This document shows positions 25,437-39,976 of a stretch of 64,000 nt of DNA, piece after piece. Location: assembly GCA_964350165.1 (NCBI GenBank), contig CAYGJA010000002.1, positions 119,822-183,821 on the forward strand, read 5' to 3'. Within the stretch, counting starts at the first letter, position 1. Every line of letters begins with the position of its first letter. Under the pieces are notes generated by a model, which saw only the letters and a program-made list of their open reading frames with translations, made no database searches and had not been told where the DNA came from. The stretch comes from an uncultured Candidatus Saccharibacteria bacterium. GTDB lineage: Bacteria; Patescibacteriota; Minisyncoccia; Phycocordibacterales; UBA1006. The translations under genes were made by a program, and so were the position numbers.

Positions 25437-25438
25437 CT

Positions 25439-28400
25439 ATGGCAAGAAATACTCTGTCATTCAGGAAAAGTTTGGTGAACTTTTTTTTGCTTGTGACAAT
25501 GTTTGCTCCTTTGGTTTTTTCGGGCTGGCCGCAATCGGGGCTGTTTAATCCCAGTGTTCAGGAAGTACGAGCTGCTGTGGGAGACATCGGTCATTGGGAA
25601 GACTCGATTGGGGGGCAAATTCCAGGGCTGACTTTTGCCGGCTTTGACTTCGACAATGAAATAAGAAATGACGGTATCTATACCAAGCCCAATGATTCGA
25701 CCATTGAGCTCGATGAGGCTGGCGATTATCTGATTATTGCCACAATTCGGGGGACTGATAATTCGAATGGCCGCTATAATCCGCAGGGCCGAGTAGCGCT
25801 GACGTCGGGTTCTGGTACGTTGTATACGTCATACAATACTGGTTATTCTCGTGACAACAGTGAAAACGAGTCCTGGGTCCGAGCCGTAGGGGTGGTAATT
25901 GGCGCTTCAGCCAATGCGCAGATACAGATTCAACGACGCCGCGATACTGACGCACCGACTTCGGGTAGCGTACCAGGTCAATCAGACGTCCAGGTGGTGC
26001 GAATTAATCCCACTAATTACGGTGTCTATGCTATTGGCGGAACGACTGATACATATGCGGGAAGTGCACCATACGGAGCCAACACACCTGATACCGTTGA
26101 TATTACGGCCGTGACGGCCGAGTCTAGCACTTCGGCCATCGAAGGCAACACCACCACCGAGACCGTGACGGTAAAAGGTGATAATAAGCGCTATCTGGTT
26201 GCTTGGTCGGTGTCGGGGGATACGGGGGGAGTTCGTACCCAGCGTATCGGGCATTTGGAATATGATGGCGTCGATGATTTGGCAACCCGGTCATATTGCT
26301 ACCAGAGGCAGGCTTCGGATGAGTACTGTGGCTTGGGGGCAATTGATATTATTGAGACTTCTACCGCAGACAGGGCTATTCAGGTTGAAGTATATATCGG
26401 AGATGGAGCTGCATCTGACCAGGGTGGGGCAGAAAATACGGGGTCTTGGGTTGCCGACGGTAATGGACAGCTGGTGATTCTGGAGCTTCCGGATTCATTA
26501 GAAGTGTTTCGCGCTCATGATTCGATTGGTTTGCAGGATATTACTAGCGCAGTGACATTGAATGCTGCTCGGGATGTTGATTTTAACGATGCCAATAGCT
26601 TTACCAAGGCTAGCAATACAGCGATTGACGTCACCTACCCAGCCGATATTTTTGCTTTTGGGAATGTCTGGACGGCTCGAAACAATGTTGGCTCTGGATT
26701 ACGCCTAACTGCTTATGGTCGAATTACTATTAATGGTGTGGAACAATCAGTGGGTGAACACGGGAATTATACTCGTGGAGACCAATCCACTTCCGGAACC
26801 TTTGGAGGAGTATTTTCTCCCGCTGGAATATTCACTATCGGAACAGCTGGTCATGATATTGGGATCAATATGGATCCTTTGGCTGGCACAGAAGGTGGAG
26901 GGGCCGACCGTACTCAGGCCGGCACGGTGGGATTTTTTGCTCTCAATCTAGACACTTTGTTGCCTCCGGCTTTTGAGCAATCTGCTTATCGATTTTTTGC
27001 CAATACTAACTCTGCCGATGTTGGGTCAGCTCTGGCTGTTCAGGATTCGGCTGCTACGCTGGCAACTACTGGTGATGCTTTTCGGTTGCGAACTTTGATC
27101 CATGTATCAGATGCTCCACTGCGACCGAGTTTGCAGGATTTCAAGCTCCAATTTGCGGAAAAAAGTGGAACCTGTGATACCAGCTTTACCGGAGAAAGCT
27201 ATGCTGACGTCACTGGCGCGACGGTAATTGCTTTTAATAATAACGCCACTCCAGCTGATGGTGACAACTTGACTGCCAATGCCAGTGACCCAACTCATGG
27301 CGGGCATACGATTGTTAACCAAGACTACGAAGAAGCGAATAACTTTACCAATAGTGTGGCTGCCATCCCGGCTGGTCAAGACGGTAAATGGGATTTTTCG
27401 TTGATTGATAATGGGGCTACAGCCAATACTTCATATTGTTTTCGCATTGTGGAAGCAGATAACACTCAACTAAGTACTTACACCGTAATACCAGAAGTAA
27501 TTACGGCTTCAGCTGGGGGCTCTCCTGATATTGCTCAGATTCACTATCGCTGGCGTGGTGATACTGAGGGCGAAACAGGAACTACTTGGGCTTTTGCCGA
27601 AGATGCAACCTCAACCAGTCTAGTCAAGCAAACGCCCACAAGACTTCGTTTTGCAATCAGTAACGAAGGGACAGCTGATACGGGTAATATTGAATACCAG
27701 CTAGAGGTGTCGGGTGCGAATCCGAGTTCGTGCTCGGTGGCTAGTTATCAGGCCGTCACTGCTGGGGGAGAGACTCATTGGGACATGGCGACTAGCACTA
27801 ATTTTACGAATTCTGATCCTACCACAAATAATTCAGGGATTACTGACGAAAACACTACGTTCGTAGCGGGTGATATTATGGATACTTCAGATACAACGGG
27901 AGTTATTGATCTGACCTCGACTCAGCACACTCAGGTAGAGTTTTCGATAGAGGCAAACACCAGTGCCACAAACGGTGGAACGTATTGTTTTCGTTTGACT
28001 AACGCCGGATCAACTACTAATTTTTCTTATGATCAATATGCTGCGGCGACTCTGGAAACATTGCCTGACGTAACAGTGTCTACTGAGGGTACGCAGGTGG
28101 CAACGGTCGATGCCGGTTCCTCTGGTAATAATATGGGTGCCAAGTTTGTAATTACTGATACTGCTGGGAATTCTCCAAATGTTACAACGCTGGTCTTTGC
28201 TGAAAACGGAACCATTGATAGTGTTAATGATATTTCTTCCATTTTTGTGCGAGCCGAAAGTGATACCAGTGATCCATACGATTGTGCTAGTGAATCTTAT
28301 GATGGGACCGAATATTCCTATGGGCCGGCCGATATTGATGGTTTTAACAGTGCTGGAGGAACGGCTTCTTTTACTGATTCTTTTTCTATTAGTCCAACTT

Positions 28401-31400
28401 CGGCTATGTGTGTGTATGTTCGTCTGGGGATTGGAGTGGGTGCTTCGCCAGGCGAAACCATTGAACTTCAAATTACCGATCCATCGACCGATGTTGTTGT
28501 TTCTTCTGGAACCGTAGGCCCCAGTACTCCTGTTTTGTTGCCGGGAACCACGGTGGTTTCAGGGCTTCCTGATCTAGATCAAATTCGTTATCGATGGTTG
28601 TACGACAATGAAGACGAAAATGAAGCAGACGTTATTGCGGCCGAAAATGCAACCAATACGGCGGTTATCAAAAACGATATTCAAAGGTTGCGTTTTATGG
28701 TGTCCAATGAGGGTTCGGGCACCTCTGGTAGCACCACTTATCGGCTCGAAGTATCCGAAGCCAACCCCTCGTCTTGTTCGGCTGGTACCTACGAACGAGT
28801 GTCTACTGATGCTGATTGGGATTTGGGAAATTCTTTAGAATTTAGTGATGGCGCGGCCACGGCGGACTCCGGCAGTTATCTTACCAATGAAAACACCACC
28901 TTTGTGGCGGGTGAACAAAAAGATACCAGTGATACTACTAGCGGTATCACGCTTACATCCACCGAATTCACTGAAATAGAATATGCCATCAAGCCAACTA
29001 CAGCTGCTACTGATGGTGGAAATTATTGTTTTCGCCTCACTAATGCTGGTACGGCTCTAGATACCTATACCCAGTATGCTATTGCTGCGGTCAAATCTAC
29101 AGCTACTAATATATATCGTTCGGTGGGTACAAATCAATCAAATTTAAACGTTGCTGGTGCAACAATTACAATTGCCACGAGTACGGTTACTTTTTCAACT
29201 GACCCAACTAGTGGCTCCGGAAATATTGGGGTGGGAGATGTTATTCAGTATCAAGATGGAGGTGCGGGTCAGTATTATTTGGCTTTTATTACAGGCAGAA
29301 CTTCTGCAACCGAATATACTGTGACAAATTATTCCGGTGGACTTCCGCATAAGGTTGCTGCCGGTGAGACGGCTCTGGTATATCGTGTCTACGACCACGC
29401 TGCGGGATGGGAGGCAAACACTCTCAGCCAAGAAAATGCAAACATTGATGCAACTGTTGATGATTACGTTATTTTGCCTTCAACTAATCTGACTGATTAC
29501 AACTATGTAATGAAGGTTCCACTCTATAAAGATGGGGTAGATAATGAATACCTCAGTCTTGCTGGTTGGACGACTAGTGCCAGCAATTATATTCACCTCT
29601 TTACTCCGATTGCCTCTAGTGAGGTCGGCACAAGTCAGCGGCACACGGGAATAGCGGGGACGGGGTATGTATATGCGAGAACAGGGGCGCCGGGCGCTGG
29701 CACCAGCAGTCACATTAACGTAACTGTGCCTTTTGTTCGTATCGAAGGAATAGAATTGGACGGTTCTTTTTTCCGAGGAGGAGAAAATGTGAACGGTATC
29801 TTGTTTAATGCAGCTGGGTCTTCTGATTTGAGACTCACCAATTCTATTCTTCACGATATATCGGGAGACGATTGCTGTGACGAGGACGCCAGCCTCGTGA
29901 ACGCAGTTGCGGTGCAAAGCTCGGCTGATACCGTAAGAATTGCCAATAATATTATTTACGACATCTCGAGCTCTTCTGCTCATGCCAGTAGTGATGTTGC
30001 AGGAATCAAATTGAGTAATAGTGCCGGGAATGTTTACGTCTACAGCAACACTATTTTTGACATCACTCAGACGAGTGTTTCTGGTGGTGATGCGCGTGGA
30101 ATATATGAGACATCTATTTCTTCTTATCTTCTCAAGAATAATTATGTGGGTGGAACAGTTGCCTCTAATGGTTCTTCTGTGGAATCAGACTATGTTGGTG
30201 ATTTTGCTTCAGGTTCAACCAATAATGTCTCTTCGGATGCGACAGCGGGAGACGACGTTGATCAGGTAAACGAAATAACGGGACAGAATAGTTATGCAAA
30301 TTACTTTAGAGATGTGGACCCAGGGGAGGAGGACTTGCGATTAAAATCTAATTCGAATACTTTATGGGGATCGTACGGCGCAGACTTGGATGTTGACGGG
30401 AATATTGCCATTACCACCGACATCGAAGGAGAGGCTCGCGATGGTACTAATCCGGATATTGGCGCAGACGAGGCCGTGAACGTGGCTGATTTGCAACAAT
30501 TGCACTATCGTTGGGGCACGGATGATGGTCGGGAAAGCTGGTATAGCTCGAGCTGGCAACATCGAGTTAGTGTCAATATTCCTGGTACAAATCTCGTTGC
30601 TCCAATGGCCGATTTCCCCATCTACGTCGATCTCTCCGATCTCCCCACCGCTTTCTTCGAAACCGTCCAAACAGACGGAGACGATATTCGAATCACCGAC
30701 GGAGACGGAGTAACCGAACTTCCTTTTGAACTTGTCTCTATAAATACCGGCACCCAAACAGGAGAACTTCACTTCAAAGCAGATTTGTTCACTGGAACAG
30801 TTAACAATTTCTACATCTACTACGGCAACGCATCTGCTACTGGCTACGCCACCACCGACACGTATGGTGCGGAGAATGTGTGGACCAATGGATATTCGGG
30901 AGTATGGCACTTAGGTGAAACAGTAACAGACGAACAAACTTCCGGAGTTCACTACGACTCCACTTCCAATAGTCTGGACGGCTCCCAAAACAACAACGCC
31001 ACCCTAGCTGCCGGAAAACTAGGACAAGCCCAAAATTTCGATGGTACCAGTGACGCTATCACCATCGCAGACAACGATGCCCTCACTCCTGTTGGTGACG
31101 CCACTTATTCATACTGGGCATACCTAGAAACCCTCAATACCAGCAACGACGGTGTTTTCTTATACAAAATGCACTCGGTTGCTCCTTGGTACAGCTACAT
31201 TATTGAATTCGATGGTAATGGTACAGATCACCAAATAGCCAACTATCTAGACACTAACGAATCCAATAATCAAGCCGGCTCCACGGCTACCACCTCGGCT
31301 GGTGCCTGGTTCTCTGTGAATGCCGTCCGCGAGAGTGACACCTGGAAGTATTACCTCAACTCAGCCGCCACTGGTTGGACCAGTGCTCTGACCACCGACA

Positions 31401-33577
31401 TGTTCAACAGTGATGGCAACCTGGTGGTTGGTGCTGGATATGGAGGCACCCAGAACGAAATCGATGGCTACATGGACGAATTGAGGATTAGTAGCGTGGC
31501 TCGAACGGCCGATTGGATTGCGGCGGAGTACAATAATCAGAATACAGCGAATGGGTTTTATGTGGTTGGATTTCACGAGACCGATTGGGCTGATTGGGGG
31601 TATCGAACAAGTATCATCATTGATGCTGATCGGGTAACCTCTACACTTATTAATTTCCCGGTGTATGTCGATTTGTCAGATTTACCAAGTGGTTTTTGGA
31701 CGAATGTTCAGGCCGATGGTGATGATATTCGTATTACCAATGCCGACGGTGAGGAAATGCCAATCGAATTAGTCTCTATTACGGACAGTGGCACCACAGG
31801 TACAGGGGAACTGCATTTCAAGGCAGATTCTCTCTCGTCTTTGGTCGACACTATTTTCTACATCTACTACGGCAACGCATCTGCTACTGGCTACGCCACC
31901 ACCAACACGTATGGTGCGGAGAATGTGTGGACTGATTATTACGCAGTGTTTCATTTGAATGAAAATGTAAACACAGCCTCTGGTGGGTATGCCAATAGTG
32001 CTGGTGGTGGTGATGGTACCGGAACAGGCATGGCAGAAGCAGCTGTTGCTGGAGCGCTGGGCGGCGGACAAGCCCAGGCTTTTGCTGCTGGCGCAGATTA
32101 TATTAGTTTTACGGAGACTTTAACTAGTGAGGATACCGTAACCATGAGTGCTTGGGCGTATCCAACAGAAACACAGCCTGCATATGTAGGGATTTTGGAA
32201 AGTAGAACTGATAATTTCGTTGGTCTGCTTGATAGTGGCGCCGGAACTGATATGTTGACTACTGCTTGGAATGGTGGCGCTGGAGAATATGATGCAAATA
32301 CTGGCTTAACCTGGTCACAAAATGAATGGCAGTTTTTTGCGGGCGTGGTAGACGATAATACGACCGTACGAACCTATCTCAATGACCAATTTTTCGATGT
32401 GGTCAGTGCGAGCAACACAAGATCTCCGGCTCTTTGGTATATAGGTGTTGACCCGATTTCAGCCGGCACTAGAGATTGGCGTGGTTATCTGGACGAAGTT
32501 CGTATTGCAAAAGAAGTGAGAAGCGCGGATTGGTTGCAGGCTGAATATCTAAACCAAGGAACACCCGAAGCTTTTTACACGGTTGGCGCCCACACGGTGG
32601 TGACACAAACAAATTCCTGGCTAGAAAATGAAGACACTTTGGCGGAAATAACGATCGGGGATATTGCTCACCTGCGATTATTGGTTTCGAATGAAGGGTC
32701 TGCACCATCGGGAGATGTGCAGTATCTATTGCAGGTTTCCGAACCAAATCCAGCTAGCTGTGCTACTGCCAGCTCGTGGGATAGCGTGACGGTAGATAGC
32801 CACTGGAATCTGGCCGATACTGCTTTTTATGAAGATATGGACAATTCGTATGATGTCGCCAGTGGTCTTACGAACGAAAATACAGCCTTTGTCAAAGGTT
32901 GGATAATGGAAAGCAGTGATACTTCGAGTAAGGTCGATCTAACTACTACGGAATTCACCGAACTCAAATACAGCTTGACCCCCACCGCTGACGCAACTAC
33001 CGGGGCAACCTATTGTTTTCGAGTGATTGATAATGGAGTAACTACGAATTTTACTCATAGTGTGTATGGTCAAGCTTCTGTTGCCGGGGGTGCCCAAACC
33101 ATAAGTTTTAGCATCTCGGATTCAACTATTGGTTTCGGGACACTTACCTCTGCCTTTACTCGTTTTGCAACGGGGGACACCCTAGGCACCACCACCACAT
33201 CAAGCGCACACACACTAACTGCTTCTACTAATGCCTCTAGTGGATACTCAATAATTGTTGAGGGTGCAACACTTACAGACGGCTCATACACTATTGATGC
33301 TATTGGCGGAGTGGCCACAACTTCGCAGTCAGGAATAGAGCAGTTTGGGGTTCGGTATACCGCTAGTGGAGGTAGCGGTAGTGTCGCTAGCCCTTATAAT
33401 GGTGCCACGACTTATGCTTATGATGGAGTATCGAATGCTGATGTTGTTGCTAGTTTGGGGGCCGGGGACGGAGTCGCAACTATTTACTCTGCTTACTATA
33501 TTGCAAACATTGCCGATCTTACAGAAGGTGGGACTTACTCGACACAAATTCAGTACACCATAACTGCAAACTACTAA
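25439..33577 (+). CDS. Giant (2712 aa) cell-surface protein with repeated about-350-aa modules, two DUF2341-like plus LamG-like lectin modules, a beta-helix region and a C-terminal domain shared with the next gene
   Basis: It has a signal/anchor N-terminus. There are four copies of a module beginning IHYRWRGD. There are two copies of ADFPIYVDLSDLP...DGDDIRITD...YIYYGNASATGY (DUF2341-like). Each is followed by ...DELRISSVARTADWIAAEYNNQ / DEVRIAKEVRSADWLQAEYLNQ (LamG-like jellyroll ending). A beta-helix region follows (NSILHDISGDD, ANNIIYDIS, SNTIFDIT). Confidence 0.6.
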   Translation: MARNTLSFRKSLVNFFLLVTMFAPLVFSGWPQSGLFNPSVQEVRAAVGDIGHWEDSIGGQIPGLTFAGFDFDNEIRNDGIYTKPNDSTIELDEAGDYLIIATIRGTDNSNGRYNPQGRVALTSGSGTLYTSYNTGYSRDNSENESWVRAVGVVIGASANAQIQIQRRRDTDAPTSGSVPGQSDVQVVRINPTNYGVYAIGGTTDTYAGSAPYGANTPDTVDITAVTAESSTSAIEGNTTTETVTVKGDNKRYLVAWSVSGDTGGVRTQRIGHLEYDGVDDLATRSYCYQRQASDEYCGLGAIDIIETSTADRAIQVEVYIGDGAASDQGGAENTGSWVADGNGQLVILELPDSLEVFRAHDSIGLQDITSAVTLNAARDVDFNDANSFTKASNTAIDVTYPADIFAFGNVWTARNNVGSGLRLTAYGRITINGVEQSVGEHGNYTRGDQSTSGTFGGVFSPAGIFTIGTAGHDIGINMDPLAGTEGGGADRTQAGTVGFFALNLDTLLPPAFEQSAYRFFANTNSADVGSALAVQDSAATLATTGDAFRLRTLIHVSDAPLRPSLQDFKLQFAEKSGTCDTSFTGESYADVTGATVIAFNNNATPADGDNLTANASDPTHGGHTIVNQDYEEANNFTNSVAAIPAGQDGKWDFSLIDNGATANTSYCFRIVEADNTQLSTYTVIPEVITASAGGSPDIAQIHYRWRGDTEGETGTTWAFAEDATSTSLVKQTPTRLRFAISNEGTADTGNIEYQLEVSGANPSSCSVASYQAVTAGGETHWDMATSTNFTNSDPTTNNSGITDENTTFVAGDIMDTSDTTGVIDLTSTQHTQVEFSIEANTSATNGGTYCFRLTNAGSTTNFSYDQYAAATLETLPDVTVSTEGTQVATVDAGSSGNNMGAKFVITDTAGNSPNVTTLVFAENGTIDSVNDISSIFVRAESDTSDPYDCASESYDGTEYSYGPADIDGFNSAGGTASFTDSFSISPTSAMCVYVRLGIGVGASPGETIELQITDPSTDVVVSSGTVGPSTPVLLPGTTVVSGLPDLDQIRYRWLYDNEDENEADVIAAENATNTAVIKNDIQRLRFMVSNEGSGTSGSTTYRLEVSEANPSSCSAGTYERVSTDADWDLGNSLEFSDGAATADSGSYLTNENTTFVAGEQKDTSDTTSGITLTSTEFTEIEYAIKPTTAATDGGNYCFRLTNAGTALDTYTQYAIAAVKSTATNIYRSVGTNQSNLNVAGATITIATSTVTFSTDPTSGSGNIGVGDVIQYQDGGAGQYYLAFITGRTSATEYTVTNYSGGLPHKVAAGETALVYRVYDHAAGWEANTLSQENANIDATVDDYVILPSTNLTDYNYVMKVPLYKDGVDNEYLSLAGWTTSASNYIHLFTPIASSEVGTSQRHTGIAGTGYVYARTGAPGAGTSSHINVTVPFVRIEGIELDGSFFRGGENVNGILFNAAGSSDLRLTNSILHDISGDDCCDEDASLVNAVAVQSSADTVRIANNIIYDISSSSAHASSDVAGIKLSNSAGNVYVYSNTIFDITQTSVSGGDARGIYETSISSYLLKNNYVGGTVASNGSSVESDYVGDFASGSTNNVSSDATAGDDVDQVNEITGQNSYANYFRDVDPGEEDLRLKSNSNTLWGSYGADLDVDGNIAITTDIEGEARDGTNPDIGADEAVNVADLQQLHYRWGTDDGRESWYSSSWQHRVSVNIPGTNLVAPMADFPIYVDLSDLPTAFFETVQTDGDDIRITDGDGVTELPFELVSINTGTQTGELHFKADLFTGTVNNFYIYYGNASATGYATTDTYGAENVWTNGYSGVWHLGETVTDEQTSGVHYDSTSNSLDGSQNNNATLAAGKLGQAQNFDGTSDAITIADNDALTPVGDATYSYWAYLETLNTSNDGVFLYKMHSVAPWYSYIIEFDGNGTDHQIANYLDTNESNNQAGSTATTSAGAWFSVNAVRESDTWKYYLNSAATGWTSALTTDMFNSDGNLVVGAGYGGTQNEIDGYMDELRISSVARTADWIAAEYNNQNTANGFYVVGFHETDWADWGYRTSIIIDADRVTSTLINFPVYVDLSDLPSGFWTNVQADGDDIRITNADGEEMPIELVSITDSGTTGTGELHFKADSLSSLVDTIFYIYYGNASATGYATTNTYGAENVWTDYYAVFHLNENVNTASGGYANSAGGGDGTGTGMAEAAVAGALGGGQAQAFAAGADYISFTETLTSEDTVTMSAWAYPTETQPAYVGILESRTDNFVGLLDSGAGTDMLTTAWNGGAGEYDANTGLTWSQNEWQFFAGVVDDNTTVRTYLNDQFFDVVSASNTRSPALWYIGVDPISAGTRDWRGYLDEVRIAKEVRSADWLQAEYLNQGTPEAFYTVGAHTVVTQTNSWLENEDTLAEITIGDIAHLRLLVSNEGSAPSGDVQYLLQVSEPNPASCATASSWDSVTVDSHWNLADTAFYEDMDNSYDVASGLTNENTAFVKGWIMESSDTSSKVDLTTTEFTELKYSLTPTADATTGATYCFRVIDNGVTTNFTHSVYGQASVAGGAQTISFSISDSTIGFGTLTSAFTRFATGDTLGTTTTSSAHTLTASTNASSGYSIIVEGATLTDGSYTIDAIGGVATTSQSGIEQFGVRYTASGGSGSVASPYNGATTYAYDGVSNADVVASLGAGDGVATIYSAYYIANIADLTEGGTYSTQIQYTITANY
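30811..30886 (+). repeat. Intragenic direct repeat copy 1 (about 75 nt, near-identical to 31858-31931)
   Basis: The sequence ctacatctactacggcaacgcatctgctactggctacgccaccacc(g/a)acacgtatggtgcggagaatgtgtggac appears twice, 1047 nt apart. Confidence 0.85.
31858..31931 (+). repeat. Intragenic direct repeat copy 2
   Basis: See copy 1. It is embedded in a diverged about-1 kb tandem duplication, 30541-31560 versus 31585-32590. Confidence 0.85.
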
Positions 33578-33580
33578 GCT

Positions 33581-33607
33581 TATTCACAGTAATTGAATAG
33601 TTTTTTT
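33581..33607 (+). terminator. Rho-independent terminator after the giant gene (TATTCA-cagtaat-TGAATA, T7)
   Basis: It was read directly and lies immediately after the TAA stop at 33575-33577. Confidence 0.65.
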
Positions 33608-33635
33608 GAGAAAGACTAACTATAGAGGTTATAAT
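33606..33635 (+). promoter_or_regulatory. Candidate sigma70 promoter (-35 TTGAGA, 17-18 nt spacer, -10 TATAAT) for the downstream surface-protein genes
   Basis: The hexamers were read directly, about 40 nt upstream of the ATG at 33677. Confidence 0.4.
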
Positions 33636-33676
33636 GGGGCCATGTGTTTACGCGCACATCTCTTATTCGGAATAGC

Positions 33677-34726
33677 AAAATTATAATGACCAAATATATT
33701 AAAAAAATCACAGCGATTGGTCTGGTTGTTGCTTCGATTGTGGCAATGACACCTCGGCCAGCTTTTGCGGCTGCTTTGACAGGCCTGTCTGACAACATGT
33801 CTAGCCAAAAGATAGGAACAGCCTCTAATCACACGATTGCATTTGTGACTCCTTCTGGGGTTGGTGCTGGAGAAACCATAACCGTAACTTTTCCATCTGG
33901 TTTCACCATTGGTTCAGTTGATAATACTGACATTGACGTTACAGGGAGCACTGCGGGGGAATTAACTTTGGGGGCTACTGCTTCGGCTGGTACTTGGGGA
34001 GCTGCTTTCTCTAGTCAGACGTTGACCATTACTTCTGGAACGGGCACCATCGCTCCTGGAGAAACGGTAACCATCGAAATCGGTACGCATGCCACAGCTG
34101 GCGCAACGGGAGATCAACAAATCACCAACCATGCTTCTGCTTCTACGTATTCGATTACGATAGCGGGCACCTTTGGTGACACTGGTTCTATCCTCATTCC
34201 TATTCTAAATGACGACCAAGTCAATATTACAGCCGAAGTTGGTCAGACCCTTACATTCTCTATTTCTGACACTACGATTGGTTTTGGGACGCTTACTTCT
34301 GGCAATGCGCGTTATGCCAGTGGTGATGCTTTGGGAACCACTACTACTGCTGCTCCCGCTCATAACTTGATTGTTGGAACAAATGCTTCTAGTGGTTACA
34401 ACGTTACTTACGAAGGCGCTACTCTTACTTCGGGATCAGACACCATTACCGCGGCTACGATTTCTGGCGATGCCAATGGTACCCCTGGTACTGAGCAGTT
34501 TGCTATTTCCTATGATACGGACGGAGACGCAACTATTGCATCTGGTTATGAACAAGCCAGTGACAACTACAATTTCGTAGTCAGTACCGCCACCACTTTT
34601 GCTTCCGAGACCTCAGCTTCAGCTAATGAGACCATTGGTGCTTACTACATTGCAAACATCGCCACCCTCACAGAGGCTGGTTCGTACAGCACAACCCTTA
34701 CTTACACCGCTACTGCTAACTACTAA
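33677..34726 (+). CDS. Secreted protein whose C-terminal half is homologous to the C-terminus of the upstream giant protein
   Basis: It has a signal peptide (MTKYIKKITAIGLVVASIVAMTPRPAFAA). Its C-terminal half (about 160 aa, FSISDTTIGFGTLTS...YYIANIATLTEAGSYSTTLTYTATANY) aligns with the giant's C-terminal 160 aa (FSISDSTIGFGTLTS...YYIANIADLTEGGTYSTQIQYTITANY). Confidence 0.55.
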   Translation, partial: KIIMTKYIKKITAIGLVVASIVAMTPRPAFAAALTGLSDNMSSQKIGTASNHTIAFVTPSGVGAGETITVTFPSGFTIGSVDNTDIDVTGSTAGELTLGATASAGTWGAAFSSQTLTITSGTGTIAPGETVTIEIGTHATAGATGDQQITNHASASTYSITIAGTFGDTGSILIPILNDDQVNITAEVGQTLTFSISDTTIGFGTLTSGNARYASGDALGTTTTAAPAHNLIVGTNASSGYNVTYEGATLTSGSDTITAATISGDANGTPGTEQFAISYDTDGDATIASGYEQASDNYNFVVSTATTFASETSASANETIGAYYIANIATLTEAGSYSTTLTYTATANY

Positions 34727-34772
34727 TGCAGGTATTATTGCGGTCAAAGGATGGCAATAGTACAATATCGTT

Positions 34773-35795
34773 ATGTTTAAACTAAGTCTCGCCAAATGGG
34801 TCCTCCTATCTGGAATGTTTGCCGTGTGTTTGCTTGGATGGAATCAGGCCCAAGCCTTAACGATTGGACCAGCCAAAGTAGAGATAGAGGTAGACGCCGG
34901 CAATGTCGTGCGAGACAAAATGACTCTTATTAATGATGAGGAGCGAGAGGTGACGTATTACTCACTGGCAGAGCTCTTTGAAGCTCAAGGCGAAGGGGGG
35001 ACTCCTAATTTTGTGGCTTCCGAAACCGGGCTATCGTCTTGGATAGAGACCGTAGATAAAATCACTCTGCAACCTAACGAAACCGTTGAGGTTCCTTATA
35101 CAATTCGAGTGCCGGTTGACGCTGATCCGGGGGGGCACTTTGCGGCTCTTTTTTGGACGACCCTTGCCCCTGATGCTGGCCAAGATGGCGGGCAAGTTAT
35201 GCTTGGTTCAAAAATCGGCATGCTTATCCTGCTTCGCGTTAACGGTGAAGTAGAAGAGGGTGGTGGTGTGTTGGAATTTTCTACTCTTGGAGACAAAAAG
35301 TTGTTTACGTCGCTACCTATCAAATTTTTCTATCGTTTTCAGAATGACGGCGGAGATAGATTGCGTCCTATTGGAGACATTACAGTTCGAAACATATTTG
35401 GTGGAAAGGCCTCTGTTTTGAATGCTAATCCAACCGAAGGTAATATTTTGCCGGGCAGTGTTCGTAAGTACGAGATCCTCTGGAGTGAAAAAACAAAAGA
35501 AGCTAATTATATTCATACGGAAAAACAAGACGAATCCAAAGGCTATTTTGCTGCTGTAAAATCTCAGTGGTCTAACTTTTTGTTCGGATACTACTCAGCT
35601 CATATTGCAATTGCTTATGGCGAAGAAGATTTGGTAGATAACGAAAAATATTCTTTTTTTATAATTCCTTGGCAGCTGCTAAGCTTAGTCTTCAGTATTC
35701 TAGTATTGGTTGGTTTTGGTGGAAGAACCCTGTTGGTGCGCTACAACCGCATGATTATTGCGCAGGCCAAAAAAGGAGCAAGTCGTAAAAAATAA
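34773..35795 (+). CDS. Cell-surface protein with a signal peptide and a C-terminal TM anchor plus basic tail (CscA/DUF916-like architecture)
   Basis: It has a signal peptide (LLSGMFAVCLLGWNQAQA) and a C-terminus (LSLVFSILVLVGFGGRTLLV) followed by the basic tail QAKKGASRKK. Confidence 0.4.
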   Translation: MFKLSLAKWVLLSGMFAVCLLGWNQAQALTIGPAKVEIEVDAGNVVRDKMTLINDEEREVTYYSLAELFEAQGEGGTPNFVASETGLSSWIETVDKITLQPNETVEVPYTIRVPVDADPGGHFAALFWTTLAPDAGQDGGQVMLGSKIGMLILLRVNGEVEEGGGVLEFSTLGDKKLFTSLPIKFFYRFQNDGGDRLRPIGDITVRNIFGGKASVLNANPTEGNILPGSVRKYEILWSEKTKEANYIHTEKQDESKGYFAAVKSQWSNFLFGYYSAHIAIAYGEEDLVDNEKYSFFIIPWQLLSLVFSILVLVGFGGRTLLVRYNRMIIAQAKKGASRKK

Positions 35796-35802
35796 AAATT
35801 AT

Positions 35803-36270
35803 ATGAGGTCTTTTTCGCTATGGTGGCTTCAAAAATTGCTATTACTGGCACTTATCTTTTTTGCGTTCACAGCTGTTGGTGTTGTGCGGGCGGGTACCAT
35901 TGTTGATTCGGGGGATGTTATTATCACAGCTCAGGTTGGAGTCATTAATCCCGGTGGTGGTGGTGCCACTGGTGATGATGGTGACACTGGTGGAGGAGGG
36001 GGAGGAATTACTGGAAGTGTTGGGTTTATTATTTTCCCTAAAATTATCGAAACACTCAAACCTTTTCCCGACATTGTTTTTGGCCCTGTTCCAAAATTTT
36101 GCTCGCGAAGAGCTGACTTAAATTGTGACGGAGCTGTCAATATTATTGACTTCTCAATCCTTATTTACTGGTTTGATCGTTTGCCAGTTCCAGAGCGGGT
36201 CGATCTAAATCGTGACGGAAAGGTAGATATTGCTGATTTCAGCGTAATGGCTTTTTATTGGACAAATTAA
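35803..36270 (+). CDS. Dockerin-type (duplicated Ca-binding loop) domain protein with a Gly-rich linker
   Basis: The C-terminus has two 22-residue segments, DLNCDGAVNIIDFSILIYWF and DLNRDGKVDIADFSVMAFYW, matching the dockerin repeat pattern D.N.DG.VN..D. It has an N-terminal signal/TM. Confidence 0.6.
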   Translation: MRSFSLWWLQKLLLLALIFFAFTAVGVVRAGTIVDSGDVIITAQVGVINPGGGGATGDDGDTGGGGGGITGSVGFIIFPKIIETLKPFPDIVFGPVPKFCSRRADLNCDGAVNIIDFSILIYWFDRLPVPERVDLNRDGKVDIADFSVMAFYWTN

Positions 36271-36274
36271 GAAT

Positions 36275-37255
36275 ATGAAAACCTTTGTAACGCTAAAAAA
36301 TAATAATAAGGTCTTAATACTAGTTTGTGCTGTGTTTTTTTTGATTTTCCCAACGACGGCTTATGGCTCTAGCGAAGAAATTAACCTAGAAATCAAATCT
36401 ACTGTTTCTGAGGTCGGCGTTGGACAAGATTTGGTGGTAAGTGTTTTTGTGCAAAATCCATCCGCTCGACCAATCAATGCGATAGACACAACGCTCCTCA
36501 TTCCAAAAAATTATTTTGAAATCAAGGAGCTTTGGCTCGGTGATTCTGTAGTACCGCTTTGGCTAGAAGACCCCGAAATAAAAGAAACAGAATCAGCTTG
36601 GCTTGTTCCTTTGTCTGGGGTTATACCTGGTGGAACCACGATAGATGACGCGGAGATTGTTCGTGTCGTATTAACGTCACAGTCTCTTTTGGGTGCCGCT
36701 TCCATCAGACTACTGTCTCCCAAGATTTTTTTACATAACCGAACTGCTGATGTTTTAGAATTGCAAACGATATATGCGGAGATAAATGTGGCGACTCTTG
36801 AGGATGCCGGCCTTATTCAAGAAATTACTGCGATTGATAAGATTCCTCCAGAGCCTTTTGTTCCGATTGTTGCAAGTGATCCCGCTTTGTATGAGGGTGA
36901 TTATTTTCTTATGTTTCAGACAATAGACAGGCAGTCCGGGGTCAGCCACTTTGAATTAATTGAAAGTGATATTTATTATGAAGAAGATGTTTTGATTCAG
37001 GATGAGAATCTTTGGTGGAAACGAGTGGAGAATCCTTATCAATTAGTTGATCAATCTTTGTCTAGTTATATCTATATTAAGGCTGTCGATCGACACGGCA
37101 ATGCTCGAGTGGTGGTTATTCCGCCCACTAATAATCTGAAAAAAAACACAGCATACCCTATAATGAAAGGAGTAATTACTCTGGTCGCCTTATTTGGTTT
37201 ATTGTTCGTTTGGAAAAAAAAGACACAGCATGTGGAAAAGAATGAAGATGAATAG
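36275..37255 (+). CDS. Cohesin-like domain surface protein with a C-terminal TM anchor
   Basis: It has a signal peptide. Its N-terminal domain (LEIKSTVSEVGVGQDLVVSVFVQNPSARPINAIDTTLLIPKNYFEIKELWLGDSV) is cohesin-like. Its C-terminus (VITLVALFGLLFVWKKK) is a TM anchor. Confidence 0.45.
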   Translation: MKTFVTLKNNNKVLILVCAVFFLIFPTTAYGSSEEINLEIKSTVSEVGVGQDLVVSVFVQNPSARPINAIDTTLLIPKNYFEIKELWLGDSVVPLWLEDPEIKETESAWLVPLSGVIPGGTTIDDAEIVRVVLTSQSLLGAASIRLLSPKIFLHNRTADVLELQTIYAEINVATLEDAGLIQEITAIDKIPPEPFVPIVASDPALYEGDYFLMFQTIDRQSGVSHFELIESDIYYEEDVLIQDENLWWKRVENPYQLVDQSLSSYIYIKAVDRHGNARVVVIPPTNNLKKNTAYPIMKGVITLVALFGLLFVWKKKTQHVEKNEDE

Positions 37256-39275
37256 AACAACCCTTGTCCTTTTTCTACTGGCATCAGTTTTTTTTCTGTT
37301 GCCTTATTTTGCCAAAGCGGCGACACTTGAAATAAGTCCACAATCTGGAGAGTTCCCGGTGGGGAGCACCTTTACCGCCAAGGTATACATAAATACCGAA
37401 GGAGAAGAAATAAACGCTCTCGATGTTTCGATTGATTTCCCAGCCGACAAGATACAGCTTGTTTCCCCAAACACCTCTTTGTCTGTGGTTGACGTATGGG
37501 CTAGTCAGCCAAAGTTTAACAATAATACTGGGAGCATTAGTTTTCAGGGAGGTATTCCAAACGGCCTCAGTACTTCGCGGGGGCTGATTAGTGAATTAAC
37601 TTTTCGCGTAAAATCTACTGGGCGAGCAGCTATTATTTTTGATAGTTCGAGTAATGTGTATCTTAATGACGGAGAAGCTACTCCTGCTTCTACTAATTTT
37701 CAAAATAGCCTGTTAACACTAACCTTGCCACCACCAGCGGGCCCAATTGTCTCGACAAGTCAACATCGACAAGGAGTTTGGAGTAAAGACAATAATATTT
37801 TTTTTGAATGGTCGGGGGAATATGAGGGTTATAGTTTGGTCCTGGATCGTAGTCCGGTTACCGTTCCTGACAATGTTGTTGATACCACAGATAATTCGAT
37901 TGCTTACAGAGATTTGGTCGATGGTGTTCATTTTTTTCATATTAAAGCCCTGCGGGGTGGTGTGTGGGGAGGGGTAACTCATTATGAGGTTAATATTGAT
38001 GCCACCAGTCCTGCCTTGTTTGATATTGAATTTTTACCCTCTGCTCGAACCTCAGCCCTTCGGCCGACGATTTCTTTTTTAACTTCGGATAGAAACTCAG
38101 GTATTAATTTTTACGAGATCAGCATCATTCCTTTGTCGGGTAGAGTTGCCGACGGCAGTCAATATGGTTTTATCGAAGCGACCAGCCCGTATATTCCAGA
38201 GAGACTTGAGCCAGGCTCTTATGATGTTATTGTTCGCGCTTATGACAAAGCCGGAAATGTCACTGAGGTAAAACAAAAATTGAGAATTGTGCAAGGTTTT
38301 ATCAGTTTGATTTCTCGTGAGGGGGTTGTGATTCGCGATGTTGCCACCGTGCCCTGGTTTGTTTTGTGGATACTCCTCCTTTTGCTTGTAGCGGCAATTG
38401 CTCGAGAGATTTATATTGCAAGAAAATTAGAGCGTGTGTATCAAGAACACAAAAAAGACAAGGAAGATCCAAAAAAAGTTAGTGAGGCACTCAAAGAACT
38501 AAAGGCATATCAGAAGAAATACGGACATCTCGTGATATTTTTTGCGATAACTGTTTCTGTGCTGACTTTCTTTGATTTCAATTCGGCTCATGCTCAAGAG
38601 ATGGACTCTTCTCAGATGGCGACACCAATAATCACCAGTTGGTCTGAAACGGTCACCAATGATGAAATTTTTTACGTTCGTGGCTATTCTTCGCGAGCAG
38701 CTGAAGCTACAGTGCTTTACTTGCAAGACAGAAATACCGGATCTGTTCAGACTTTTGAAATTGACATTAGCGAAGGCGGAGACTGGTTTTATCGACATGG
38801 TACTTTTTTGCGACCAGGCGACTATGGAATCTGGGTCCAAGCCAGATTTGGCGATGAGTTATCCGCCCCAAGCTCTGAACGGATTGTTAGGGTAAGTAAA
38901 GAAGCTTTATCCTTCGGTCTGTCTAGGCTTAGTTTGGGGGCAGTGTATTTGATTATTACGGTGCTCCTGATTTTGCTTCTTTTCTTTTTTGCCTGGTACG
39001 CGACTCGCATAAAAAGAAAAGCGAGGTTAGGTTATGAGCGATATTTGGAAGAAATAAAAGAAGCAGAAGAATCGGTGCGTCGAGGTTTTGCCATTCTTCG
39101 TCGCGACCTGCATCGTGAACTCAAGAGCCTTCGAGCTCAGATTGAAAATCACACCATTACCCCCGAGGAGTTGATGGAAAAAGAACAGTTACTGTTGGAT
39201 GACTTGCGGCACATAGAACAAAAGATTGGTAAGGAAGTTTGGGATATAGAGATTGAGGCTGAAAAAAACAAATAA
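37230..39275 (+). CDS. Cohesin-like domain protein with Ig/FN3-like middle domains, two TM segments and a C-terminal cytoplasmic coiled coil
   Basis: Its N-terminus LEISPQSGEFPVGSTFTAKVYINTEGEEINALDVSIDFPADKIQLVSPNTS...SISFQGGIPNG...LISELTFRVKSTGRAAIIF matches the cohesin pattern strongly. It has TM helices (VPWFVLWILLLLLVAAIA, LGAVYLIITVLLILLLFFFAWY). Its C-terminus is charged and helical. Confidence 0.55.
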   Translation: MWKRMKMNRTTLVLFLLASVFFLLPYFAKAATLEISPQSGEFPVGSTFTAKVYINTEGEEINALDVSIDFPADKIQLVSPNTSLSVVDVWASQPKFNNNTGSISFQGGIPNGLSTSRGLISELTFRVKSTGRAAIIFDSSSNVYLNDGEATPASTNFQNSLLTLTLPPPAGPIVSTSQHRQGVWSKDNNIFFEWSGEYEGYSLVLDRSPVTVPDNVVDTTDNSIAYRDLVDGVHFFHIKALRGGVWGGVTHYEVNIDATSPALFDIEFLPSARTSALRPTISFLTSDRNSGINFYEISIIPLSGRVADGSQYGFIEATSPYIPERLEPGSYDVIVRAYDKAGNVTEVKQKLRIVQGFISLISREGVVIRDVATVPWFVLWILLLLLVAAIAREIYIARKLERVYQEHKKDKEDPKKVSEALKELKAYQKKYGHLVIFFAITVSVLTFFDFNSAHAQEMDSSQMATPIITSWSETVTNDEIFYVRGYSSRAAEATVLYLQDRNTGSVQTFEIDISEGGDWFYRHGTFLRPGDYGIWVQARFGDELSAPSSERIVRVSKEALSFGLSRLSLGAVYLIITVLLILLLFFFAWYATRIKRKARLGYERYLEEIKEAEESVRRGFAILRRDLHRELKSLRAQIENHTITPEELMEKEQLLLDDLRHIEQKIGKEVWDIEIEAEKNK

Positions 39276-39349
39276 AGCTTTGTGTCAAGTGGAAAAAAAG
39301 ATTGATGTGCTAGGATACGGATGTTTATTCAGCCATAATGATTTTTGAT

Positions 39350-39976
39350 ATGAAAACTTTTCGTAGACTTATTGTTGTTCTGATTTTGGCTTTAGCTTTT
39401 TTGGCGTTTGCGTTTGGATATTTTTTGTCAGGCAAAACAAGGGCTGACTTGCCTGTTGTTGTGAACGAAGCAACTAGTACGATTGCTTTCGAGGAAGATT
39501 TGTCTGACGAATCGACTGAAGACGAGGGGGTAATGATTGTTTTAGAAAAAAATGACCCTCCTGTTGTTCAAGAGGCGGAAGAAGAACTAGAAGGAAGTGT
39601 GGTGAGCGAAAAAAAAGATATTCCACCTTTAGAAAATACACCTTACGTAGAAGAGAGCGAGGACAGGGAGGCCTCATTAATGACTCTTCGAGCTGGTGCG
39701 TATGAATTTGTTGCGGGGAATAGCCTTATGACTGTTATTGTCAAAAACAGTCAGTATGTGGGTTTTGATGATGGTTGCAACGTTGGTTTTGGCTCACTTG
39801 TTTGGCATTCCGAAACTTCATCTTGGAATATCGTCGCATATGGTCACACACAAAAGAAATGTGCAGACAAAGAAAATCTGGTGGCCCTAATCGACAAGAA
39901 CACAAAAATAGAATCTAAAAACCAAGGACTCTGGCTAGATCTTGGGGCAAAGAATTTCGTTGCTCTTACAGAGTAA
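39350..39976 (+). CDS. Secreted acidic hypothetical protein
   Basis: It has a signal/TM (LIVVLILALAFLAFAFGYFL) and an acidic region. Confidence 0.4.
   Translation: MKTFRRLIVVLILALAFLAFAFGYFLSGKTRADLPVVVNEATSTIAFEEDLSDESTEDEGVMIVLEKNDPPVVQEAEEELEGSVVSEKKDIPPLENTPYVEESEDREASLMTLRAGAYEFVAGNSLMTVIVKNSQYVGFDDGCNVGFGSLVWHSETSSWNIVAYGHTQKKCADKENLVALIDKNTKIESKNQGLWLDLGAKNFVALTE

What the first reader, a model, noticed from the sequence alone, without database searches (positions are those of the whole stretch)
33097..34726. About 160-aa C-terminal domain shared between the 2712-aa giant and the adjacent 360-aa protein
The giant's last about 160 aa (FSISDSTIGFGTLTSAF…YYIANIADLTEGGTYSTQIQYTITANY) and the C-terminal half of the downstream protein (FSISDTTIGFGTLTSGN…YYIANIATLTEAGSYSTTLTYTATANY) align along their length with high identity. 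The upstream parts are unrelated. A shared C-terminal module ending in an aromatic-rich Y/T-rich strand suggests a common anchoring or sorting domain, analogous to WxL, S-layer-homology or secretion-signal domains, and possibly domain shuffling.
Basis: seen in the sequence. Interest (0 to 1): 0.55.

Follow-up and report, generated by a model that had tools for sequence, protein, structure and literature searches.

The report
Pam-pilus domain mounts giant adhesin
The domain shared by the 2,712-residue giant and its small neighbour is the subunit-joining domain of the recently described Pam pilus of CPR (Patescibacteria) bacteria, and the giant most likely sits as an adhesin at the tip of a fibre built from the small protein.

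Summary
The two C-terminal stretches are 54% identical over 162 residues (E 7e-36; z = 28.8 against shuffles), and all 13 family-invariant columns are kept.

Both copies score above the curated cutoff of NCBIfam NF058581, CPR_Pam_pilin_C. This is the donor-strand-accepting C-terminal domain (CTD) of Pam pili, described in a 2026 cryo-EM preprint.

The 346-residue protein is a complete pilin: signal peptide, β-sandwich N-domain, conserved linker strand (DDQVNITAEV) and CTD. The giant has the CTD but no linker. It can therefore accept a strand but not donate one, which points to the pilus tip.

The downstream genes fit this reading:
- a membrane-anchored PapD/WxLIP-like chaperone;
- a dockerin protein whose mature N-terminus copies the pilin linker strand;
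- two cohesin-domain membrane proteins.

This gene order recurs in most of 86 CPR loci. The linker-less CTD proteins there range from 243 to more than 3,291 residues.

The domain itself is known. Three things are not in the preprint: giant tip fusions, a proposed dockerin–cohesin tether at the base, and the chaperone's resemblance to Firmicute WxLIP. All mechanistic steps are inferred from sequence and predicted structure.

The parts
25409..33577 (+). Giant secreted protein. It is 2722 aa from TTG, and the probable start is the ATG at 25439, giving 2712 aa. It has an N-terminal signal-like segment, four 'YCFR' Ig-like modules, two Laminin_G_3 (ConA-like lectin) regions and a C-terminal Pam CTD. 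It is the candidate pilus-tip adhesin.
   Evidence: ORF. Pfam Laminin_G_3 E 8e-26. YCFR modules at residues 676, 859, 1206 and 2535. The signal-like N-terminus (MARNTLSFRKSLVNFFLLVTMFAPLVFSG) is read directly from the sequence.
33098..33574 (+). Giant's C-terminal Pam pilin domain (CTD, 159 aa). It is an acceptor only: no linker (donor) strand precedes it.
   Evidence: NF058581 scores 71.1 bits against a cutoff of 55 (68.4 bits). My CTD HMM matches positions 15-174 only, and positions 1-14 (the linker) are absent.
33606..33635 (+). Sigma-70-like promoter match (TTGAGA-18-TATAAT, 11 of 12) in the 108-nt gap between the giant's stop codon and the pilin ATG.
   Evidence: It is the best-scoring site in 23300-39600; sequence. 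It is a consensus match only, and the total number of sites in the region is not above the shuffled expectation.
33686..34726 (+). Pam-type structural pilin of 346 aa: signal peptide, beta-sandwich N-domain, linker strand, CTD.
   Evidence: P0001 is 100% identical and 346 aa. AF2 gives pLDDT 93.9 with two beta domains. NF058581 scores 66.9-70.5 bits.
34211..34246 (+). Pilin linker (donor) strand DDQVNITAEVGQ, lying between the N-domain and the CTD.
   Evidence: The family consensus from 106 pilins is DIIADDQVNVTATVDPTI. In the AF2 monomer it is unpaired coil and the lowest-confidence part of the mature protein (residues 175-188, pLDDT 84-89). Its role is inferred from the PamA/PamB cryo-EM structures.
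34247..34723 (+). Pilin CTD, the second copy of the shared domain.
34773..35795 (+). Membrane-anchored PapD/WxLIP-like two-domain protein of 340 aa. It is the candidate pilus chaperone (PamC/PamD analogue).
35803..36270 (+). Dockerin protein. The ORF runs from TTG 35758 and the probable start is the ATG at 35803. It consists of a signal peptide, a donor-strand-like motif, a Gly-rich spacer and a type I dockerin. It is the candidate pilus terminator and base adaptor.
   Evidence: Pfam Dockerin_1 scores 32.1 bits against a cutoff of 22.9. For the N-terminal motif see the next part.
35908..35943 (+). SGDVIITAQVGV, a copy of the pilin linker strand motif immediately after the dockerin protein's signal peptide.
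   Evidence: Across 65 dockerin proteins the linker PSSM median is 4.3, against -6.5 for 662 control ORFs (Mann-Whitney p = 3e-30). 58% score above the control 95th percentile. In most of the printed top-scoring examples the best window lies immediately after the signal peptide.
36275..37255 (+). Cohesin-family N-domain, then an Ig-like region, then a C-terminal transmembrane helix (326 aa). It is a candidate membrane anchor for the dockerin protein.
   Evidence: A family profile built without window sequences scores E 4.3e-17 over the whole domain. 13 of 22 family members hit Pfam Cohesin, best E 1.6e-8, and no other Pfam family is hit. The TM segment GVITLVALFGLLFVW is read from the sequence.
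37194..39275 (+). Second cohesin-family membrane protein (693 aa from TTG; the probable start is an ATG at 37230-37248), with transmembrane segments.
   Evidence: The jackknifed family profile scores E 6.5e-41.

Best explanation
The shared ~160-residue module is the Pam-type pilin C-terminal domain. It is an incomplete Ig-like beta domain whose missing strand is supplied in trans by the next subunit.

Window 25409-39275 encodes a whole Pam-like pilus operon of a CPR (Patescibacteria) bacterium. The proposed roles are:

1. The 346-aa protein is the shaft pilin. Its linker strand (DDQVNITAEV) inserts into the CTD of the subunit ahead of it, and its own CTD accepts the linker of the subunit behind it.
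2. The giant carries the CTD but no linker strand, so it can only be the first, distal subunit. Its ~2,550-residue N-terminal region, which contains lectin-like domains, is thereby held at the pilus tip as an adhesin. This is functionally like FimH/PapG or PamT, but on a far larger scale.
3. The 340-aa membrane-anchored PapD/WxLIP-like protein caps CTD grooves before assembly.
4. The dockerin protein has a linker-like strand at its mature N-terminus and no CTD. It fills the last pilin's groove and so ends the fibre. Its dockerin then binds the cohesin domains of the two membrane-anchored proteins, tethering the pilus to the cell.

Shown here: the homology of both copies to the Pam CTD model; the presence or absence of the linker; the predicted fold of the chaperone; the linker-like motif in dockerin proteins; the conservation of the operon.

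Inferred: donor-strand exchange itself, the tip position of the giant, and the dockerin-cohesin tether.
For: CTD identity
- All ten CTDs tested, from giants, small linker-less proteins and pilins of six loci, score 60-85 bits on NF058581 against a cutoff of 55.
- The Pam preprint shows by cryo-EM that PamA and PamB polymerise by inserting the inter-domain linker strand into the neighbour's CTD. It proposes a CTD-only tip (PamT), TM-anchored PapD-like chaperones, and a strand-plus-TM terminator.

Pilin anatomy
- The AF2 model has pLDDT 93.9 with two beta domains.
- The linker, residues 175-188, is unpaired in the monomer.

Linker dichotomy
- In the loci examined, pilins match my CTD HMM from position 1-2.
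- Every giant matches only from position 14-17.
- Among the 150 nearest representatives, none of the 33 proteins of at least 1000 aa has the linker. 26 of the 47 proteins of 261-420 aa do.

Operon conservation (86 loci)
- 84 have the chaperone, 62 a dockerin protein and 60 cohesin proteins.
- 55 have a linker-less CTD protein immediately upstream of the first pilin. These range from 243 to more than 3291 aa, and 23 are at least 1000 aa.

Chaperone
- The model has a C-terminal TM helix.

Terminator
- Dockerin proteins match the linker PSSM far better than controls do (p = 3e-30). In the printed examples the match usually lies just after the signal peptide and is followed by a Gly- or Pro-rich spacer.

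Cohesin family.

Promoter
- The best sigma-70-like site of the region lies directly before the pilin gene. This fits a need for far more pilin than tip protein.
Against: - No structure of any complex was computed or seen, so the open groove of the CTD could not be inspected.
- The chaperone has no NCBIfam hit, and its Pfam WxLIP hits are below threshold.
- In a single locus the dockerin N-terminal motif is not statistically distinctive. It ranks joint third (tied at 23) in the window scan. The case rests on recurrence across loci.
- 9 of 70 loci with visible upstream sequence have no linker-less CTD protein, and 12 have one only downstream.
- The window's own cohesin-like domains do not hit Pfam Cohesin individually.
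- Filaments have been seen only in Ca. Mycosynbacter amalyticus, a distant relative.
Confidence: 0.65

Rival explanations
1. Surface-display anchor, as in the WxL model. The CTD is a docking module that binds stably to the membrane-anchored WxLIP-like protein, which supplies the missing strand. On this view the giant and the 346-aa protein are each displayed directly on the cell envelope and are not joined into a fibre with the giant at its tip.
For: - The neighbour is WxLIP-like in fold and weakly in sequence.
- In Firmicute WxL clusters a small and a large protein share a C-terminal domain.
- AF2 there predicts a WxLIP strand completing the WxL sandwich, and the published reading is anchoring (PMC10599100).
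Against: - The CTD passes the Pam pilin model, not WxL.
- The pilin family keeps a highly conserved linker strand, and the dockerin proteins copy it. A pure anchor model does not explain this.
- Homologous two-domain pilins form fibres in cryo-EM.
- The consistent split between linker-bearing and linker-less proteins fits ordered assembly.
Confidence: 0.2
2. The family forms a non-pilus assembly in these lineages, for example a surface layer or sheath of strand-swapped subunits. The giant would be one of several accessory proteins plugged into that lattice.
For: - Only one organism's filaments have been imaged.
Against: - A subunit with one donor and one acceptor gives linear polymers.
- The operon has single tip-like and terminator-like components.
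Confidence: 0.1
3. The similarity is a compositional artefact of T/S/G/A-rich sequence, or a recent local duplication with no function.
For: Both stretches are rich in T, S, G and A.
Against: - z = 28.8 against shuffles and E 7e-36 with composition correction.
- All 13 invariant family columns are kept.
- There are 433 representative proteins with the domain.
- Nucleotide identity is about 59%.
Confidence: 0.01

Closest known systems
Pam pilus of Candidatus Mycosynbacter amalyticus (PamA/PamB/PamE pilins, PamT tip, PamC/PamD chaperones, PamR terminator). Sources: bioRxiv 10.64898/2026.03.03.709456; NCBIfam NF058581 and NF058579.
   Same: - The C-terminal pilin domain passes the curated HMM.
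- The pilin has two domains joined by an inter-domain linker strand.
- All parts carry signal peptides.
- The chaperone is PapD-like with a C-terminal TM helix.
- There is no usher or trans-envelope machine in the operon.
- The system is restricted to CPR bacteria.
   Different: - The tip protein here is a 2,712-aa multi-domain giant, whereas PamT is a single domain. It scores 38.9 bits on the PamT model against a cutoff of 240.
- No PamR-like protein is present. Its two roles (N-terminal strand and TM anchor) appear to be split between a dockerin protein and cohesin-TM proteins.
- The lineages are mostly labelled Paceibacteria/Parcubacteria-type (Kerfeld-, Nomura-, Kaiser-, Doudnabacteria and others), not the Saccharimonadia and Microgenomatia stressed in the preprint.
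- The preprint mentions neither WxL/DUF916 nor cohesin/dockerin.
Chaperone-usher pili of Gram-negative bacteria (Fim/Pap; two-domain tip adhesins FimH and PapG).
   Same: - The proposed assembly is by donor-strand complementation and exchange.
- The tip adhesin is a binding region fused to a pilin domain that accepts a strand but donates none.
- A dedicated terminator subunit ends the fibre.
   Different: - There is no outer-membrane usher.
- The donor strand is an internal linker and not an N-terminal extension.
- The pilin has an extra N-domain.
- The chaperone is membrane-anchored.
- The adhesin is about ten times larger.
- The proposed tether is non-covalent cohesin-dockerin binding.
WxL gene clusters of Firmicutes (small WxL, large WxL with a C-terminal WxL domain, and WxLIP = DUF916 + DUF3324 + TM). 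Sources: PMC10599100, PMC9772566; PDB 9i1y.
   Same: - The cluster logic is the same: a small and a large secreted protein share a C-terminal beta domain, next to a two-Ig-domain protein with a C-terminal TM helix.
- AF2 in that literature predicts a WxLIP strand completing the WxL sandwich.
   Different: - The shared domain here has no Trp-x-Leu motifs and no Pfam WxL hit.
- WxL is described as a peptidoglycan anchor, not a pilin.
- The Pfam WxLIP_PGBD hits are weak and below threshold.
- WxL clusters usually carry an LPXTG protein and not cohesin/dockerin proteins.
Cellulosome-type cohesin-dockerin pairs.
   Same: - The dockerin passes the Pfam threshold.
- 13 of 22 members of the neighbouring N-domain family hit Pfam Cohesin.
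- The two are encoded side by side.
   Different: - No enzymes or scaffoldins are involved.
- The proposed role is tethering a pilus base.
- Binding was not tested.

Membership tests
Pam pilin C-terminal domain (NCBIfam NF058581, CPR_Pam_pilin_C) | Score at or above the curated cutoff of 55 bits | tested here: met
   Giant CTD 68.4 and 71.1 bits; pilin 66.9 and 70.5 bits. Eight further CTDs from five other loci score 60-85 bits.
Pam pilin C-terminal domain (NCBIfam NF058581, CPR_Pam_pilin_C) | Domain lies at the extreme C-terminus of a secreted CPR protein | tested here: met
   All 150 best representatives end within a few residues of the domain's end. Named sources are CPR groups. Signal peptides are read from the sequence.
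Pam pilin C-terminal domain (NCBIfam NF058581, CPR_Pam_pilin_C) | Truncated Ig-like fold with an open groove that accepts a neighbour's strand | tested here: inconclusive
Pam structural pilin (PamA/PamB/PamE architecture) | Signal peptide + beta-sandwich N-domain + single linker strand + CTD | tested here: met
   Met for the 346-aa protein: AF2 shows about ten N-domain strands, an unpaired linker at 175-188, and the CTD. The linker is conserved in 106 pilins. Not met for the giant, which lacks the linker.
Pam structural pilin (PamA/PamB/PamE architecture) | Sequence relationship of the whole protein to PamA or PamB of M. amalyticus | not testable with these tools
   WP_260763287.1 and WP_260763280.1 could not be fetched. 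No PDB sequence hit.
PamT tip pilin (NCBIfam NF058579, equivalog) | Score at or above the cutoff of 240 bits | tested here: not met
   The giant's CTD scores 34.8-38.9 bits. Pilins score about the same (34-45 bits), so the hit reflects only the shared CTD.
PamT tip pilin (NCBIfam NF058579, equivalog) | CTD without a donor linker strand (acceptor only) | tested here: met
   The giant matches the CTD HMM only from position 15. None of 33 proteins of at least 1000 aa has the linker.
PamC/PamD chaperone | Two-domain PapD/FimC-like fold | tested here: met
PamC/PamD chaperone | C-terminal transmembrane helix and N-terminal signal peptide | tested here: met
   Helix 300-339 in the model. The hydrophobic segments are read from the sequence.
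PamR terminator/anchor | One protein with an N-terminal donor strand, RbmA-like FnIII domains and a C-terminal TM helix | tested here: not met
   No such single protein is present. The strand-like motif is on the dockerin protein, which has no TM helix. The TM helices are on the cohesin-family proteins.
WxL domain (Pfam PF13731) / WxL cluster | Two Trp-x-Leu motifs and a match to the Pfam WxL model | tested here: not met
   There is no Trp in either copy (sequences). No WxL hit at E <= 1, and none in 53 family members at E <= 0.1.
WxL domain (Pfam PF13731) / WxL cluster | Adjacent WxLIP (DUF916 + DUF3324 + TM) | tested here: inconclusive
Classical chaperone-usher pilus | Outer-membrane usher and an N-terminal-extension donor strand | tested here: not met
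   No usher-like protein is found among the operon genes (Pfam and NCBIfam). The conserved strand is internal.
Cohesin-dockerin pair | Dockerin and cohesin domains recognised by curated models | tested here: met
   Dockerin_1 scores 32.1 bits against 22.9. Cohesin is met at family level only: 13 of 22 members, best E 1.6e-8. The window's own domains join the family at E 6.5e-41 and 4.3e-17.
Cohesin-dockerin pair | Physical binding of the two modules | not testable with these tools
   No complex prediction or experiment was possible.

The most novel reading that the evidence does not exclude
Many CPR bacteria outside Saccharimonadia build a modular pilus with three features.

1. Interchangeable adhesins, from a bare domain up to proteins of more than 3,000 residues, are mounted on the tip through an acceptor-only Pam CTD.
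2. The base is closed by a strand-only subunit and held to the membrane non-covalently by a dockerin-cohesin pair.
3. The chaperone is a true homologue of Firmicute WxLIP.

The third point would imply that WxL clusters of enterococci, listeriae and lactobacilli are strand-complementation assemblies of the same ancestry, and not simple peptidoglycan anchors.
Probability: 0.3. Interest if true: 0.8.

Novelty: new variant of a known kind. Interest (0 to 1): 0.6.

Why it matters
Most CPR bacteria are thought to live attached to other microbes, and how they find and hold hosts is largely unknown.

If giant surface proteins are mounted on Pam pili through this domain, their function becomes testable. 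It would explain how an ultra-small cell can project a very large, variable binding protein far from its surface. It would also give a simple sequence rule for picking candidate host-recognition proteins out of thousands of uncultured genomes: a C-terminal Pam domain with no linker strand, encoded just upstream of a pilin.

The proposed dockerin-cohesin tether would be a new way to fix a pilus to a cell.

The resemblance to WxLIP raises the possibility that the poorly understood WxL loci of Gram-positive gut bacteria and pathogens work by the same strand-exchange principle.

Tried and rejected
- Pfam on the shared domain and on 53 family members found no meaningful family: no WxL, SLH or pilin model.
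- A PDB sequence search with the pilin, the chaperone and the chaperone profile found nothing relevant.
- Foldseek of the pilin model against the PDB returned only generic two-Ig adhesins with low TM scores.
- The AFDB libraries were not available, so the WxL domain could not be compared by fold.
- The word-indexed homologue search with the giant's CTD returned only proteins of 107-331 aa and no giants. The exhaustive representative search corrected this.
- I checked whether giants are closer to PamT than pilins are. They are not: 27-50 bits in both classes.
- I scanned single loci for the linker 12-mer. Within one locus the dockerin match is not distinctive. Only the multi-locus PSSM test is significant.
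- I tested whether the chaperone carries a linker-like strand. The signal is weak (p = 3e-4; 31 of 98 best hits fall at 'GQVSVGAK', HMM positions 130-149) and absent in the window's own protein. I treat this as inconclusive.
- BLASTP of the giant against itself found no internal repeats at E 1e-4.
- Literature searches found no paper that links WxL with donor-strand pili, or cohesin/dockerin with CPR pili.
- The organism could not be named.

Full report
**Observation**

The giant ORF (25409..33577) and the next ORF (33644..34726) lie on the + strand. With 33098-33574 and 34247-34723 the two stretches align over their whole length:
- 87 of 162 positions are identical and 6 are gap positions, with E 7e-36 under composition-based statistics.
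- A shuffle test gives a Smith-Waterman score of 356 against 67 +/- 10, so z = 28.8.
- All 13 invariant CTD columns of a 53-member family alignment are kept in the giant.
- Nucleotide identity is about 59%, and there are only two copies in the window.

**What the domain is**

Pfam has no model for it. NCBIfam does. Both copies pass NF058581, CPR_Pam_pilin_C (cutoff 55 bits): 68.4 and 71.1 bits for the giant, 66.9 and 70.5 bits for the small protein.

The model name led to a 2026 preprint (bioRxiv 10.64898/2026.03.03.709456). It reports the following:
- Cryo-EM of filaments from Ca. Mycosynbacter amalyticus shows two pilins, PamA and PamB.
- Each pilin has a beta-sandwich N-domain, a single linker strand and a truncated Ig-like C-terminal domain. 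[quoted passage not shown]
- From AlphaFold models the authors propose a CTD-only tip (PamT), PapD/FimC-like chaperones with a C-terminal TM helix (PamC and PamD), and a terminator with an N-terminal strand and a TM helix (PamR).

**The small protein is a complete pilin**

- Its closest database match (P0001) is 100% identical and 346 aa long, so translation probably starts at the ATG at 33686.
- More than 878 homologues of about 350 aa exist. Every named one comes from a CPR group.
- AF2 on a 53-sequence alignment gives pLDDT 93.9: a signal helix, an N-domain of about ten strands, an unpaired segment at 175-188, and a seven-strand CTD.
- The unpaired segment is the linker. In 106 pilins from the fetched loci its consensus is DIIADDQVNVTATVDPTI, which makes it one of the most conserved stretches of the protein.

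**The giant has the acceptor but not the donor**

I built an HMM from the pilin alignment starting at the linker.
- Pilins match it from position 1-2.
- The window's giant matches only from position 15.
- Giants in Nomurabacteria CP060223.1 (3335 aa), CP060230.1 (2540 aa), JBFOMN010000215.1 (3974 aa) and a JGI contig (5666 aa) match only from position 15-16.
- The residues before the giant's CTD (…NFTHSVYGQASVAGGAQ) are the end of the preceding 'YCFR' Ig-like module, not a DDxVxVTATV strand.

An exhaustive phmmer search of 1.84 billion representatives with the giant's CTD found 433 proteins at E <= 1e-3.
- In all 150 listed, the domain is at the extreme C-terminus.
- Protein lengths run from 120 to 2748 aa.
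- None of the 33 proteins of at least 1000 aa has the linker, whereas 26 of the 47 proteins of 261-420 aa do.

A subunit that can accept a strand but cannot donate one can only occupy the distal end of such a fibre. This is the logic of FimH and PapG in chaperone-usher pili (established knowledge) and of PamT in the preprint. The giant's N-terminal ~2,550 residues contain two ConA-like lectin regions (Laminin_G_3, E 8e-26), which fits an adhesin.

**The rest of the operon**

The 340-aa protein (34773..35795):
- It has about 290 homologues of the same size.
- Its AF2 model (pLDDT 91.5) shows a signal peptide, two beta-sandwiches and a C-terminal helix at 300-339.
- 23 of 54 family members hit Pfam WxLIP_PGBD (DUF916) weakly.

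The next gene encodes a dockerin protein (Dockerin_1, 32.1 bits against 22.9). Immediately after its signal peptide comes SGDVIITAQVGV, which resembles the pilin linker DDQVNITAEVGQ. The same relation holds in four other independent loci. Within one locus this is not distinctive. A PSSM of the linker was then applied to 65 dockerin proteins and to 662 control ORFs:
- The medians are 4.3 and -6.5 (Mann-Whitney p = 3e-30).
- 58% of the dockerin proteins score above the control 95th percentile.
- In most of the printed top-scoring examples the best window sits right after the signal peptide and is followed by a Gly- or Pro-rich spacer.

The two following genes encode membrane-anchored proteins that share an N-terminal domain:
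- A profile built without window sequences finds both (E 6.5e-41 and 4.3e-17) and nothing else in the window.
- 13 of 22 family members hit Pfam Cohesin (best E 1.6e-8), and no other family is hit.
- The weak PDB profile hits are mostly cellulosomal cohesins.

I therefore propose two things. The dockerin protein is a strand-only terminator. It is held at the membrane by cohesin-dockerin binding. Together these would be a split version of PamR. This step is inference.

**Conservation**

A scan of one genome per GTDB species gave 80 loci. Their titles name Kerfeld-, Nomura-, Doudna-, Kaiser-, Taylor-, Uhr-, Falkow-, Peri- and Parcubacteria, Paceibacterota and Microgenomatus, plus many automatically labelled MAGs.

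Over 86 non-duplicate loci with a linker-bearing pilin:
- 84 have the chaperone downstream.
- 62 have a dockerin protein and 60 have cohesin proteins.
- 55 have a linker-less CTD protein directly upstream of the first pilin, ranging from 243 to more than 3291 aa, with 23 of at least 1000 aa.
- Of the 70 loci with at least 1.5 kb of upstream sequence visible, 12 have such a protein only downstream and 9 have none.

The best sigma-70-like site of the 16-kb region (11 of 12 matches) lies in the gap before the pilin gene. This would allow far more pilin than tip protein to be made. It is a consensus match only.

**Comparison with known systems**

The shared domain is a member of the Pam pilin CTD family, because the curated threshold is met. 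The system is a variant of the Pam pilus, not a copy of it:
- The tip is a giant and not a PamT equivalog (38.9 bits against 240).
- No PamR-type protein is present.
- The preprint mentions neither WxL/DUF916 nor cohesin/dockerin.

The system works like a chaperone-usher pilus, but without an usher and with an internal donor strand.

The cluster logic also mirrors Firmicute WxL clusters. Those hold a small WxL protein, a large WxL protein with the domain at its C-terminus, and WxLIP. AF2 predicts that a WxLIP strand completes the WxL sandwich (PMC10599100, PMC9772566). Membership in the WxL family fails, because the domain has no WxL motifs and no Pfam hit. Homology of the chaperone to WxLIP is plausible but not established.

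**Limits**

- No complex could be predicted.
- Model coordinates could not be inspected.
- The AFDB libraries were offline.
- The tip position of the giant and the dockerin-cohesin tether are therefore well-motivated inferences, not findings.

**Verdict**

The domain is already known from 2026. The giant tip fusion, the split terminator-anchor and the WxLIP resemblance make this a new variant of a known kind, of moderate to high interest.

Noticed in passing
window 33606-33635: The best sigma-70-like promoter match of the whole 23300-39600 region (TTGAGA-18-TATAAT, 11 of 12) lies in the 108-nt gap between the giant's stop codon and the pilin ATG. This suggests separate, stronger transcription of the pilin. 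It also argues that the GTG at 33644 is not the start codon.
   Followed up: partly
window 23547-25436: A 629-aa ORF lies immediately upstream of the giant and overlaps its start. It has an N-terminal hydrophobic segment and a long, very acidic E/P/A/V-rich middle. It has no Pfam or NCBIfam hit, and its relation to the pilus operon is unknown.
   Followed up: partly
window 41235-43973 and 44037-48596: Two more large secreted proteins lie just downstream of the operon. One is 912 aa with Calx-beta and CarboxypepD_reg domains. The other is 1519 aa with CBM6/CBM35, SH3_3, fn3 and a pectate-lyase-like beta-helix. Neither carries the Pam CTD.
   Followed up: partly
L010, L011, L015, L062, L068, L070, L074, L086 (e.g. 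L011 12192-13331): A variant operon type. A divergent linker-less CTD protein of 355-373 aa (only 34-41 bits on my CTD HMM) lies after the first chaperone, followed by one to three further chaperone paralogues. No dockerin or cohesin gene was detected in most of these loci (L015, L068 and L074 are exceptions), and no CTD-bearing giant lies directly upstream.
   Followed up: no
L009 15621-17789; L020 15627-17776; L025 7032-9178; L027 16719-18892: Some loci carry a second pilin-plus-chaperone pair after the cohesin genes. This suggests more than one shaft pilin type, as with PamA and PamB.
   Followed up: no
window 34773-35795, residues ~130-150; chaperone family HMM positions 130-149: The chaperone's lowest-confidence loop is followed by a strand (family consensus GQVSVGAKxGxLxLLRV) that weakly resembles the pilin linker. 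31 of 98 chaperones have their best linker-PSSM window there (p = 3e-4 overall). It may be the strand that caps the CTD groove. The window's own protein does not score.
   Followed up: partly
giant residues 676, 859, 1206, 2535 (window ~27434, 27983, 29024, 33011); P0289-P0425: A 'YCFR…DTY…YPEITTA' Ig-like module occurs four times in the giant. Its last copy sits directly before the CTD. The same module directly precedes the CTD in many otherwise different proteins of 300-2500 aa, as if module plus CTD form a conserved stalk.
   Followed up: partly
window 20402-21913: A GH3-family (acyl acid amido synthetase-like) protein with all three Pfam GH3 domains (N-domain E 2e-47) is encoded next to methionyl-tRNA synthetase in this small CPR-type genome.
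   Followed up: no
window 35758-36270 compared with L002-L009 dockerin proteins: The window's dockerin protein is unusually short: 155-170 aa against 278-312 aa elsewhere. It lacks the Ig-like (Big_6/Big_13) middle region and keeps only the strand motif, a Gly-rich spacer and the dockerin.
   Followed up: no
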